From the NCBI RefSeq assembly GCF_003334335.1, contig NZ_QOWQ01000009.1: DNA of 64,000 nucleotides; one strand, written 5' to 3'. A program made the position numbers. Below, piece by piece: positions 48,201 to 51,200 of the stretch (position 1 is its first letter; each line of letters opens with the position of its first letter). The DNA comes from Escherichia coli (GTDB lineage Bacteria > Pseudomonadota > Gammaproteobacteria > Enterobacterales > Enterobacteriaceae).

Positions 48201-51200
48201 ATCCACGGTTCGCCAGCCGTAAACCCGGCATTATCGCCGTTGCTCCATTGCATGGGCGTGCGGCTGTTGTCACGGGATTTACTGGCGAGGATTGCCAATA
48301 ACTCGTCGGCATCACGCCCATCGTTGCGCAGCTCGGCAAACATATTGAGGCTCTCCACGTCGCGATAGTCAGTAATGCGCGTGAAATGCGGGTTGGTCAT
48401 GCCAATCTCTTCGCCCTGGTAGATATACGGCGTTCCCTGCATGCCATGCAGCACCATCGCTAGCATTTTTGCCGCAGGCACGCGGTATTCACCTTCATCA
48501 CCAAAGCGAGAAACAATGCGCGGCTGATCGTGGTTACACCAGAACAAGGCATTCCATGCTACGTTGTGCATTCCTTGTTGCCAGTGGCGGAACAATGTTT
48601 TCAACGCCACAAAGTCAGGTTTAGCCAGCGTCCATTTTTCACCACCGGGATAATCGACCTTCAGGTGATGAAAATTAAAGGTCATCGATAATTCACTGCC
48701 TGCCAGTGCCGCGTATCGCTGGCAATGCTCAAGGCTGGTGGAGGACATTTCACCTACGGTCATTAACCCGCGTGGCGTAAACACATCGCGGTTCATCTCG
48801 TGCAAAAACTCGTGTGCTCGTGGCCCGTCGGTGTAGAAGCGACGCCCGTCGCCATCCAGGTCTTCAGGGAAACGCGGGTCTTTGGAGATCAGATTCACCA
48901 CATCCAGGCGCAACCCATCGACCCCACGATCGGCCCAGAATTCACAGACTTTTTTCAGCTCTGCGCGTACCGCTGGATTCTCCCAGTTGAGATCCGCCTG
49001 TTCTGGTGCAAAGAGATGCAAATAGTACTGTTCGCTTTCCGCATGCCAGCGCCACGCACTACCGCCAAATTTTGAACGCCAGTTATTCGGTGGCGTTTCT
49101 GGTTCGCCATCGCGCCAGATATAAAACTGGCGGTAAGGGCTTTCTTTGTTCAGCGCCTCGCGAAACCAGGCATGTTGGGTAGAGGTATGGTTAAACACCA
49201 TATCGAGAATGATACGAATCCCGCGCGATTTTGCCTGCGTCACCAGTTCGTCAAAATCGTCCAGCGTGCCGTAGGTGGGATCAATCGCCGTATAGTTCGC
49301 TACGTCGTAACCGTTATCGACCTGGGGAGAGACATAAAAGGGGGTTAGCCAGATGGCATCAACGCCCAGTTTATGCAGATAGTCCAGGCGTTGGATAACG
49401 CCACGTAAATCGCCGGTACCGCTACCCGTGGTGTCCTGAAAACTCTTTGGATAAATCTGGTAGATAACGCCGTTTTGCCACCAGTGGGGAAGATTAGTCA
49501 TTACGTTATTCCTGCGAATGCGAGGGGGCGCAATTGCGCCCCGAAGAAAATTAAACAATGTCCAGCGTGCCCAGGCGGTATTTCCGCTGATAGATAAACG
49601 AGGTGAGTACAATCGGGATGATGATGGCGATAGCCATTGCCAGCGCAAACACCTGCCAGTAGCTCGGTTGAATCGAGAGAATTCCCGGCAGGCCGCCTAC
49701 GCCGATGCCATTCGCCATAACGCCGTTCAGGCCGCATAGCAATCCTGCCAGACCAGAACCAATCATCGCGCACAGCATCGGGAAGCGATATTTCAGGTTG
49801 ATGCCGTACATTGCAGGCTCAGTGACCCCAAGCCAGGCGGAGATAGCGGCAGGCACGGAGATCTCGCGTTCATTGTGCTTGCGGCTGGAAATGATAATGC
49901 CTATCACGGCGGAGCCCTGAGCGATATTCGACAGCGCAATCAGCGGCCACACTGGCGTACCACCCATGCTTTGAATCATCTGCAAATCAATAGCAAGCGT
50001 GGTCTGGTGTACACCGGTGATCACCAGCGGGGCGTACAGGAAGCCAAACAATGCTGCGCCAATAGGTGCAAAGCTGCCGGTCATCAGGTGACGTACCGCA
50101 AAGGCAACGCCATCGCCAATCATGCGTCCAAACGGACCAATCAGCGCATGGGCGAGGAACACCGCGAGGATCAGCGAACAGACGGGCACCACCACCAGAT
50201 AGAGGTAATCCGGCACGATGCGTTTAAGGCGAGTTTCAATAACGCCCAGCGCCAGCCCGGCTAACAGTGCCGGGATCACCTGCGCCTGATAGCCTACTTT
50301 GGCGATGCTGAACATGCCAAAGTCCCACACTTCCGGCAGCTGCTGCCCGAGCAGATAAGCGTTCATCAGCTGTGGAGAAACCAGCGTTACGCCAAGTACG
50401 ATACCAAGGATCGGCGTGCCGCCCATTTTTTTCACCGCTGACCAGCAAATCCCGACCGGCAGGTAGAAGAAGATCGCTTCACCGATCAACCACAGAAAAT
50501 CGTAGATCGTTTGCAGGGAAGGGTACATTTGCGCCAGCGTTTGACCGTTGCTCATGGGCAAATCGCCGATCACATTGCGAAAACCGAGGATCAAACCGCC
50601 GCTAATCAACGCGGGCAGCAACGGGAAGAAGATCTCCGCGAAATGAGAGATCAACTGCTCATGCCATTTCATATTCTGCCGGGCGGCTTTTTTTACCTGC
50701 TCTTTATCAACCTGCGCCTGTCCGGTTGACGCAATCAGTGCTTGATAGTAATCACCCACATTGGTGCCAATCACCACCTGAAATTGCCCGGCATTGGTGA
50801 AACAGCCTTTCACCATGGGGAGTTGCTCAATTTCTTTCGGTCTGGCATTGGCCGGTTGGTTGAGGACAAAGCGCAGGCGAGTAATACAGTGGCTCACCGT
50901 CGCAATATTGCCGCGCCCGCCGACCAGTTCAATCAACCGATCGATATCCGTTTGGTTTATTTTGCTCATCATAAAGCCCCATGGCAGATGACATTTTTGG
51001 TTGGCTGCAGAATATATTGCGCGGAAAAATTTAAAAACGGGAACGTTCCCGAAACGCAGCGAAGATCACAATTTATCGTTCAGGAAACGATCAGGACAGG
51101 GTGGCGGGGATGATGATTTGTTGCGGTTCGCTGCGCCCGGTTACCTGTGCGATCAATTGGCAGGCCGCCTGGCGTCCAGCTTCGGCGTAACCAGGATCTA

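What the first reader, a model, noticed from the sequence alone, without database searches (positions are those of the whole stretch)
51038..51095. Perfect 14-bp palindrome and a second inverted repeat in the treR-treB intergenic region
CGGGAACGTTCCCG (51038-51051) is a plausible TreR operator. ATCGTT-N5-AACGAT (51074-51090) abuts the treR stop and could be either a second operator or the treR terminator stem.
Basis: seen in the sequence. Interest (0 to 1): 0.3.

Follow-up and report, generated by a model that had tools for sequence, protein, structure and literature searches.

The report
Known TreR operator at treB promoter
The 14-base palindrome is the long-known docking site where the E. 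coli trehalose repressor TreR shuts off the trehalose uptake operon, while the second small inverted repeat next to it is not conserved and has no demonstrable role, so the finding is ordinary.

Summary
The window is E. coli; the treR-treB spacer (50973-51090) is identical to K-12. CGGGAACGTTCCCG is at 51038-51051 as stated. The second repeat, ATCGTT-N5-AACGAT, lies at 51075-51091, one base off.

A 14-bp palindrome is not rare by count: 4 in the window against about 5 in shuffles. Comparison carries the case. In 75 distinct treR-treB spacers from about 20 enterobacterial genera, the 12-bp core GGGAACGTTCCC is invariant. It is wedged between an invariant CRP half-site (TGTGATC) and a conserved promoter (TTTT of the -35, TAnnCT -10, CA start). 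It occurs in 76/76 loci with treB next to treR and in 0/4 without. It stays with treB when 1.8 kb is inserted after treR.

This is a LacI-family operator: an even palindrome with a central CG, 72 bp upstream of treB, centred near -42.5. It is the known TreR operator. The outer C-G pair that makes it 14 bp occurs in only 8/75 spacers.

The second repeat is poorly conserved, has odd symmetry without a central CG, and lacks a U-tract. Published Term-seq lists no RNA 3' end in the spacer. It is not a second operator, and a terminator role is unsupported.

Novelty: already known. Interest: low.

The parts
51038..51051 (.). TreR operator. In this strain it is the 14-bp perfect palindrome CGGGAACGTTCCCG. 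The conserved core is the 12-bp GGGAACGTTCCC at 51039-51050, with a central CpG at 51044/51045.
   Evidence: Present as described. The core is 75/75 invariant across distinct enterobacterial treR-treB spacers. The outer position 51038 matches the window in only 8/75; 66 have A on the - strand. The 12-mer is in 76/76 loci with treB and 0/4 without. It stays next to treB when 1.8 kb is inserted after treR.
51052..51073 (-). CRP-like site, reading AATTGTGATCTTCGCTGCGTTT on the - strand. The left half-site TGTGA (51070-51066) is perfect and the right half is poor. It abuts the operator. Its centre is about -60.5 or -61.5 relative to the inferred start.
   Evidence: TGTGATC at 51064-51070 is 75/75 invariant, and TTT at 51052-51054 is 74-75/75. 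[quoted passage not shown] Assignment to CRP is by consensus match and inference.
51032..51037 (-). -35-like hexamer TTTTTA, a poor match to TTGACA, directly downstream of the operator on the - strand.
   Evidence: TTTT at 51034-51037 is conserved in 69-75 of 75. It lies 17 bp from the conserved -10. Inference from spacing.
51009..51014 (-). -10 hexamer TATTCT (conserved pattern TAnnCT).
   Evidence: T51014 72/75, A51013 75/75, C51010 65/75, T51009 75/75. The better-looking TATATT at 51016-51011 is not conserved.
51002..51003 (-). Inferred treB transcription start: CA on the - strand, with A51002 (K-12 4,466,210) 7 nt after the -10.
   Evidence: C51003 73/75 and A51002 70/75. This is an inference. 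No experimental start-site table could be consulted.
51075..51091 (-). Second inverted repeat, ATCGTT-N5-AACGAT. As RNA it forms AUCGUUU-CCU-GAACGAU at -5.0 kcal/mol, beginning at the last base of the treR stop codon. It is a weak hairpin and probably has no function.
   Evidence: structure and energy. Poorly conserved. Hairpin potential is lineage-specific. No U-tract, and not called by the terminator scan. No Term-seq 3' end.
51091..52038 (-). treR, the LacI-family trehalose operon repressor (315 aa).
   Evidence: TIGR02405 equivalog, 589 bits against a cutoff of 357. Residues 4-31 (helix-turn-helix) and 50-62 (hinge) are invariant in 80 loci.
49551..50972 (-). treB, the PTS trehalose EIIBC, first gene of the regulated treBC operon.
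   Evidence: NF008236 equivalog, 974 bits. RefSeq annotation of the identical K-12 locus.

Best explanation
The palindrome at 51038-51051 is the operator of the treBC promoter. A dimer of the LacI-family repressor TreR, encoded immediately upstream, binds the 12-bp core GGGAACGTTCCC through its two helix-turn-helix domains. The hinge helices contact the central CpG.

The operator spans about -36 to -49. It is wedged between a CRP site centred near -60.5/-61.5 and a weak -35 element. Bound TreR should therefore prevent CRP-assisted recruitment of RNA polymerase. Trehalose-6-phosphate releases TreR, and cAMP-CRP then activates the promoter when glucose is absent.

The second inverted repeat (51075-51091) is not part of this switch. 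It is most likely a chance or lineage-specific weak hairpin at the 3' end of the treR message.

Shown here: the anatomy, conservation, co-occurrence with treB, and family-typical geometry. Inferred or taken from the literature: actual binding, the inducer, and the steric mechanism.
For: - Gene identities: TreR, TreB, TreC and MgtA all match equivalog models. The spacer is identical to K-12 MG1655, and the window is collinear with K-12 4,415,209 onwards with 1.1% divergence over 6 kb.
- Phylogenetic footprint: 75 distinct treR-treB spacers were drawn from 80 species-level genomes of Escherichia, Citrobacter, Salmonella, Enterobacter, Leclercia, Kosakonia, Raoultella, Klebsiella, Kluyvera, Buttiauxella and others. 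GGGAACGTTCCC is invariant in 75/75. TGTGATC is invariant in 75/75. T-A-n-n-C-T (-10) and CA (start) are conserved, while the surrounding columns vary freely.
- Co-occurrence: the 12-mer is in 76/76 loci with treB and 0/4 loci where treR has no treB neighbour.
- Linkage to treB: in L037 and L047 a 1.8-kb insertion separates treR from treB, and the CRP/operator/promoter module stays 84-86 nt upstream of treB.
- Extra copy: Trabulsiella (L041) carries a second copy, AGGGAACGTTCCCT, about 70 nt upstream of a second treB-like ORF.
- Repressor conservation: TreR residues 4-31 and 50-62 are invariant in all 80 loci, matching an invariant operator.
- Family rules (Ravcheev et al. [quoted passage not shown] This site has a central CG and lies 72.5 bp upstream.
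- RegPrecise lists TreR(1) in Enterobacteriales with 8 regulons, 8 sites and the effector trehalose-6-phosphate.
- From my own memory, not checked here: that 1997 paper reports a DNase I footprint of TreR on a palindrome directly upstream of the treB -35.
Against: - By counting alone, a 14-bp palindrome is not unusual in 64 kb: 4 observed against 5.07 expected.
- No binding experiment can be done here, and the primary footprinting papers were not available.
- PMC3505978 says RegulonDB lists two TreR operator sites for treBC. I could not see which. Only one conserved palindrome exists in the spacer. From memory, the two may be the two halves of this palindrome, but that is unverified.
- The start site, and hence the -42.5 and -60.5 positions, are inferred from conservation, not from data.
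- The right half of the CRP site is a poor match to consensus.
Confidence: 0.92

Rival explanations
1. The palindrome acts, instead or in addition, as the intrinsic terminator of treR. On the treR/treB strand it forms a hairpin, CGGGA-ACGU-UCCCG, followed by UUUUUAAAUUUUU.
For: It is the only terminator-like site that the consensus scan found in 50800-51300: 5 pairs, 4 G-C, and a T-run. The hairpin is -6.3 kcal/mol and appears in the centroid fold. The TTTT after it is conserved. treR has no other convincing terminator.
Against: - One such site is within the chance expectation for the region (0.6 +/- 0.9 in shuffles).
- In 66/75 spacers the outer pair is C.A, leaving a 4-bp stem of -5.4 kcal/mol.
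- The element travels with treB, not with the treR 3' end, when the two are separated (L037, L047). It also recurs before a second treB-like ORF with no treR upstream (L041).
- Term-seq in MG1655 under three conditions lists no 3' end between 4,466,181 and 4,466,298. treR expression is low, so this absence is weak evidence.
- The conserved TTTT is equally explained as the -35 region.
Confidence: 0.06
2. The second inverted repeat (51075-51091) is a second, auxiliary TreR operator that allows looping or cooperative repression.
For: PMC3505978 notes that RegulonDB lists two TreR sites at treBC, and that a LacI/TreR chimera behaves as if it loops. The repeat contains GAACG, which resembles one operator half-site (direct reading of the sequence).
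Against: - Its symmetry is 17 bp, centred on a base with no central CpG. Odd palindromes account for about 4% of LacI-family regulators, and the main TreR site is even.
- Its columns match the window in only 7-63 of 75 spacers, while TreR's DNA-binding domain and the main operator are invariant.
- It is broken in an E. coli representative, L002.
- The 14-mer has no other match with up to 3 mismatches near treB.
- RegPrecise lists one site per regulon.
Confidence: 0.03
3. The second inverted repeat is a weak terminator or a 3'-end-protecting hairpin for the treR message.
For: - It starts at the last base of the treR stop codon and folds at -5.0 kcal/mol, better than 96% of shuffles of the same 27-nt segment.
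- Several other genera carry a different short hairpin at the same place, followed by TTTATT. Examples are Leclercia GCGTCAAATGACGC (-9.7), Silvania GCCTCCTGAGAGGC (-10.0) and Kluyvera AAGCTGATATCAGCTT (-6.5).
- Citrobacter shows apparently compensatory changes, CGCT..AGCG versus TGCT..AGCA.
- Overall 20% of spacers reach p<=0.05, against 5% expected.
Against: - In E. coli the stem has only 2 G-C pairs and is followed by AUAAAUU, not a U-tract. The scan does not call it.
- Most genera (Enterobacter, Raoultella, Klebsiella, Kosakonia, Buttiauxella) have no significant hairpin. The mean z is only -0.82.
- No Term-seq 3' end is listed in the spacer.
- The sequences are related, so the 20% figure is not a set of independent trials.
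Confidence: 0.2

Closest known systems
TreR operator of the E. coli treBC promoter (Horlacher & Boos 1997, J Biol Chem 272:13026; RegPrecise regulog TreR(1)/Enterobacteriales)
   Same: Same organism and the same locus. The spacer is identical to K-12. The site lies upstream of treB next to treR, and directly upstream of the -35 as I recall the paper stating. The effector is trehalose-6-phosphate.
   Different: Nothing detectable. The one refinement from this work is that the conserved unit is the 12-bp GGGAACGTTCCC. The 14-bp perfect form is a minority variant (8/75 spacers).
PurR / RbsR / CcpA-type LacI-family operators (even palindromes with an AACGTT-like centre)
   Same: Even palindrome, central CpG, AAC|GTT core, and a promoter-proximal position (for the family rules; the sequences of the named operators are from my own knowledge).
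   Different: The outer specificity bases are GGG/CCC. The regulator is TreR, and it is induced rather than co-repressed.
Class I CRP-dependent, repressor-gated sugar promoters (the lac and mal type of logic)
   Same: An activator site upstream at about -61, a weak -35, and a specific repressor released by a pathway intermediate.
   Different: Here the operator sits between the CRP site and the -35, abutting both, rather than over or downstream of the start site as lacO1 does. The position numbers are inferred, not measured.
Rho-independent terminators
   Same: Both inverted repeats can form short hairpins on the treR transcript. The operator hairpin is followed by a T-run.
   Different: The stems are only 4-7 bp and -5 to -6.3 kcal/mol. 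The second repeat lacks a U-tract. No mapped 3' end lies in the spacer.

Membership tests
LacI/GalR-family operator (TreR operator) | Even-length palindrome with a central CG step | tested here: met
   CGGGAAC|GTTCCCG, 7+7 with no spacer, CpG at 51044/51045. Family rule from PMC4052901.
LacI/GalR-family operator (TreR operator) | [quoted passage not shown] | tested here: met
   The centre, 51044.5, is 72.5 bp upstream of the treB ATG at 50972. It sits between the conserved CRP half-site and the conserved -35/-10.
LacI/GalR-family operator (TreR operator) | The cognate LacI-family regulator is present and its DNA-reading residues co-conserve with the site | tested here: met
   treR matches TIGR02405. 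Residues 4-31 and 50-62 are invariant in 80 loci, and the operator core is invariant in 75/75.
LacI/GalR-family operator (TreR operator) | The site is conserved upstream of orthologous target genes and is absent where the target is absent | tested here: met
   76/76 loci with treB have it and 0/4 without do. It stays with treB after an insertion. A second copy lies before a treB-like ORF in L041.
LacI/GalR-family operator (TreR operator) | Direct binding by purified TreR, relieved by trehalose-6-phosphate | not testable with these tools
   This needs an experiment. It was published (Horlacher & Boos 1997), but that paper is not in the library. Only secondary citations were read.
Second TreR operator (claim for 51075-51091) | Same half-site sequence and even symmetry as the primary operator, and conservation with it | tested here: not met
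   Odd 17-bp symmetry with no central CpG. Columns are conserved in only 7-63 of 75. There is no close match to the operator elsewhere near treB.
Intrinsic (Rho-independent) terminator, claim for 51075-51091 | G+C-rich stem followed immediately by a U-tract | tested here: not met
   Only 2 G-C pairs, and the tail is AUAAAUUG. Not reported by the scan.
Intrinsic (Rho-independent) terminator, either hairpin | An RNA 3' end mapped a few nt downstream of the hairpin | tested here: not met
   The curated Term-seq 3' ends of MG1655 (PMC7815308 supplements) have none between 4,466,181 and 4,466,298. Caveat: treR is weakly expressed.
Intrinsic (Rho-independent) terminator, claim for the palindrome 51038-51051 | Stem of at least 5 pairs plus a U-tract, tied to the 3' end of the upstream gene | tested here: inconclusive
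   The consensus is met in this strain. The stem is 4 bp in 66/75 spacers, and the element segregates with treB, not treR.
CRP (cAMP receptor protein) site | TGTGA-N6-TCACA at a class I distance from the start | tested here: inconclusive
   The left half, TGTGA, is perfect and invariant. The right half, CTGCG, matches 1/5. The centre at -60.5/-61.5 relies on an inferred start site.

The most novel reading that the evidence does not exclude
treR has no convincing terminator of its own, and the TreR operator lies directly in the path of treR read-through. TreR bound at the operator might therefore double as a transcriptional roadblock, possibly helped by the operator's own hairpin and T-run. That would insulate treBC from constitutive treR transcription. 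The repressor would then control both initiation at the treB promoter and read-through from its own gene.
Probability: 0.15. Interest if true: 0.3.

Novelty: already known. Interest (0 to 1): 0.07.

Why it matters
It matters little beyond confirmation. The site is the textbook-type operator of a characterised E. coli sugar regulon, and RegulonDB and RegPrecise already cover the TreR regulon.

The comparison across about 20 genera adds small refinements:
- The functional core is the 12-bp GGGAACGTTCCC, not the 14-bp palindrome.
- The conserved -10 is TATTCT rather than the better-looking TATATT.
- The CRP half-site, operator and promoter form one compact module that moves with treB.
- The neighbouring small inverted repeat should not be annotated as an operator.

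Tried and rejected
- Primary papers: Horlacher & Boos 1997 (PMID 9148912) and Klein et al. 1995 (PMC177135) are not held. The published footprint and primer-extension start could not be read.
- Literature searches: a search for the operator sequence itself found nothing. A search for 'treBp' returned only unrelated matches. A search for curated-database-style (EcoCyc/RegulonDB) descriptions of TreR binding found nothing useful.
- Start-site tables: the supplements of Kim et al. 2012 and Ettwiller et al. 2016 had no entry near the expected coordinates. The start site therefore remains inferred.
- Within-species polymorphism does not discriminate. The 40-mer around the operator is identical in 5011/5418 E. 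coli genomes, and the 40-mer around the second repeat in 4928/5420.
- Counting statistics do not make the palindrome significant.
- The sigma-70 consensus scan found no promoter in 50800-51300, consistent with a weak, activator-dependent promoter.
- The whole 121-nt treR 3' region is not unusually structured as RNA (z = +0.46).
- Rfam has no family in the spacer.
- Rejected ideas: the second repeat as an operator (not conserved, wrong symmetry), and the palindrome as primarily a treR terminator (it segregates with treB, and no 3' end is mapped).

Full report
**Observation**

The + strand reads CGGGAACGTTCCCG at 51038-51051, a perfect 7+7 palindrome. All relevant genes are on the - strand. They are treR at 51091-52038, treB at 49551-50972 and treC at about 47849-49501. 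mgtA is divergent at 52417-55113. All four identities rest on NCBIfam equivalog hits far above the curated cut-offs.

The last base of the second repeat (51091) is the A of the treR stop codon TGA.

The window is E. coli. A 301-nt stretch around the site is found in 5418 of 5426 complete E. coli genomes. The window is collinear with K-12 MG1655 (window position = K-12 position - 4,415,208). It has 66 mismatches over 6 kb and an identical 118-bp treR-treB spacer.

**Is it more than chance?**

Not by counting. The window has 4 perfect palindromes of at least 14 bp, and dinucleotide shuffles give 5.07 on average. A 6-bp stem with a 3-8-nt loop is expected 0.28 times in any 118 bp. The argument has to come from position and conservation.

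**Comparative evidence**

One scan of species-representative genomes with TreR as the query returned 80 loci. They have 83-99% protein identity and come from about 20 genera of Enterobacteriaceae. In 76 of them treB follows treR.

74 spacers of normal length plus the window gave 75 distinct sequences, which I aligned. Column counts show a sharp footprint:
- GGGAACGTTCCC (51039-51050) is identical in 75/75.
- C51051 is identical in 74/75.
- The flanks TTT (51052-54) and TTTT (51034-37) are conserved in 69-75 of 75.
- TGTGATC (51064-70) is identical in 75/75.
- Further downstream on the - strand, T51014, A51013, C51010 and T51009 (a TAnnCT -10) are conserved, as is CA at 51003-51002.
- The columns between these blocks vary freely.

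Position 51038, which makes the palindrome 14 rather than 12 bp, agrees with the window in only 8/75 spacers. 66 have A on the - strand. The conserved unit is therefore the 12-bp palindrome.

**Association with treB rather than with the end of treR**

- The 12-mer is present in all 76 loci that have treB. It is absent in the four loci where treR has no treB neighbour: L004 Escherichia sp. E1V33, L005 E. whittamii, L029 Enterobacter asburiae AEB30 and L035, a Pluralibacter MAG.
- In L037 and L047 a 1.8-kb insertion with two ORFs lies after treR. The whole TTATTGTGATC...GGGAACGTTCCCATTTT...GAGTAGGCT module remains 84-86 nt upstream of treB.
- In L041 (Trabulsiella) a second copy, AGGGAACGTTCCCT, lies about 70 nt upstream of a second treB-like reading frame, MLKINQQDIDKLIELVGG....
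- TreR residues 4-31 (helix-turn-helix) and 50-62 (hinge) are invariant in all 80 loci. This matches an invariant operator.

**Anatomy and mechanism**

I take the conserved TATTCT (51014-51009) as the -10 and A51002 as the start. Both are inferences from conservation. On that basis:
- The -35 position falls on TTTTTA (51037-51032).
- The operator spans about -36 to -49, centred at -42.5.
- The 22-bp CRP-type site AATTGTGATCTTCGCTGCGTTT (51073-51052) is centred at -60.5. It would be -61.5 if the start is A51001.

The three elements abut one another. The sigma-70 consensus scan finds no promoter here, as expected for a weak, activator-dependent promoter.

This geometry fits the family rules in Ravcheev et al. 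2014. [quoted passage not shown] This one lies 72.5 bp upstream.

The same paper's RegPrecise table lists TreR(1) in Enterobacteriales with 12 genomes, 8 regulons, 8 sites and the effector trehalose-6-phosphate. That is one site per regulon.

[quoted passage not shown] From memory, that 1997 paper footprinted TreR on a palindrome directly upstream of the treB -35. I could not read it.

The most likely mechanism is that dimeric TreR on GGGAACGTTCCC occludes the -35 and alpha-CTD/CRP surface. Trehalose-6-phosphate releases it, and cAMP-CRP then recruits polymerase.

**The second inverted repeat**

On the treR transcript it folds as AUCGUUU-CCU-GAACGAU at -5.0 kcal/mol. It has only two G-C pairs and is followed by AUAAAUUG, not a U-tract. 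The terminator scan does not call it.

Its columns match the window in 7-63 of 75 spacers. One E. coli representative (L002) has a G-to-T change that abolishes the fold.

I asked whether hairpin potential, rather than sequence, is conserved just after the treR stop. Some lineages do have a short hairpin there, usually followed by TTTATT: Escherichia, the Citrobacter freundii group (with apparently compensatory changes), Leclercia, Silvania and Kluyvera. Most do not. The mean z is -0.82, and 20% of spacers reach p<=0.05. This gives weak, lineage-specific support for a 3' hairpin at best.

As an operator it fails. It has odd symmetry, no central CpG and no conservation, even though the protein and the main site are invariant.

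**Terminator question and Term-seq**

The only terminator-like site the scan found in 50800-51300 is the operator palindrome itself with its TTTTTAAATT tail, on the - strand. The hairpin is -6.3 kcal/mol in this strain and -5.4 in the common C.A variant.

The curated MG1655 Term-seq 3' ends (Adams et al. 2021) include none in the spacer, 4,466,181-4,466,298. They do include ends at 4,466,176 and 4,464,728. Together with the element's linkage to treB, this makes a terminator role unlikely. treR is weakly expressed, so the negative result is not strong.

A roadblock role for bound TreR against treR read-through is not excluded. It is my 'novel case'.

**Loose end**

PMC3505978 states that RegulonDB lists two TreR operator sites for treBC. 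I could not inspect the record. Only one conserved palindrome exists in the spacer, and RegPrecise counts one site. My recollection that the two are the two halves of the palindrome is unverified.

**Verdict**

The palindrome is the already known TreR operator of the treBC promoter. The second repeat is not an operator and has no supported function. Interest is low.

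Noticed in passing
window 49525-49542 (- strand transcript), treB-treC spacer 49502-49550: An 18-bp perfect palindrome, GGGGCGCAATTGCGCCCC, forms a -15 kcal/mol hairpin between treB and treC. 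It is the longest perfect palindrome in the window. Term-seq in MG1655 lists a very strong 'primary' 3' end at K-12 4,464,728, which is window 49520, 5 nt downstream of it. There is no U-tract, so it looks like an intra-operon 3'-end or stabiliser hairpin that could set the treB:treC ratio.
   Followed up: partly
window 50968 (K-12 4,466,176), - strand: A Term-seq 3' end lies 4 nt into the treB coding sequence, about 35 nt from the inferred start. It is not in a Rho region (Rho score 0.86) and its intrinsic-terminator score is 1.44. This suggests a short abortive or processed leader transcript at the treB start.
   Followed up: no
window 50967-50972: treB begins ATGATG. In the alignment only the second ATG (50969-50967) is conserved. 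Other genera have ATC-ATG, ATA-ATG or ACG-ATG. The real start may therefore be one codon downstream of the annotated one.
   Followed up: no
window 51009-51016: Two overlapping -10 candidates exist. The better consensus match, TATATT (51016-51011), is not conserved. TATTCT (51014-51009) shares T-A-n-n-C-T with all genera.
   Followed up: partly
window 52208-52323 (+): A magnesium riboswitch (Rfam RF01056, 121.9 bits) lies in the mgtA leader, divergent from treR. K-12 annotates the mgtL leader peptide next to it. This is a known element.
   Followed up: no
L004, L005, L029, L035 (downstream of treR, about 2949-3150): Escherichia sp. E1V33, E. whittamii, Enterobacter asburiae AEB30 and a Pluralibacter MAG keep an intact treR (86-96% identity). 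They have no treB and no operator 12-mer within the fetched 2 kb downstream. This looks like an orphan repressor or a relocated operon.
   Followed up: no
L037 1613-3416 and L047 2948-4809: A 1.8-kb insertion lies between treR and the treB promoter module in Enterobacter chuandaensis and E. quasihormaechei. It carries two - strand ORFs of 159 aa (MSTPAHLWLEDENGSP..., which by eye resembles Hcp) and 230 aa. Neither ORF was searched against any library.
   Followed up: no
L041 1118-1129 and ORF from 1198: Trabulsiella odontotermitis has a second copy of the operator core, AGGGAACGTTCCCT, upstream of a second treB-like N-terminus that lies upstream of treR. No long ORF was listed there, so it may be a pseudogene.
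   Followed up: partly
window 47846-49648 (-): The longest treC ORF (600 aa, TTG start) overlaps treB. The family models align from residue 50, and K-12 annotates 551 aa. The true start is therefore at about 49501.
   Followed up: yes
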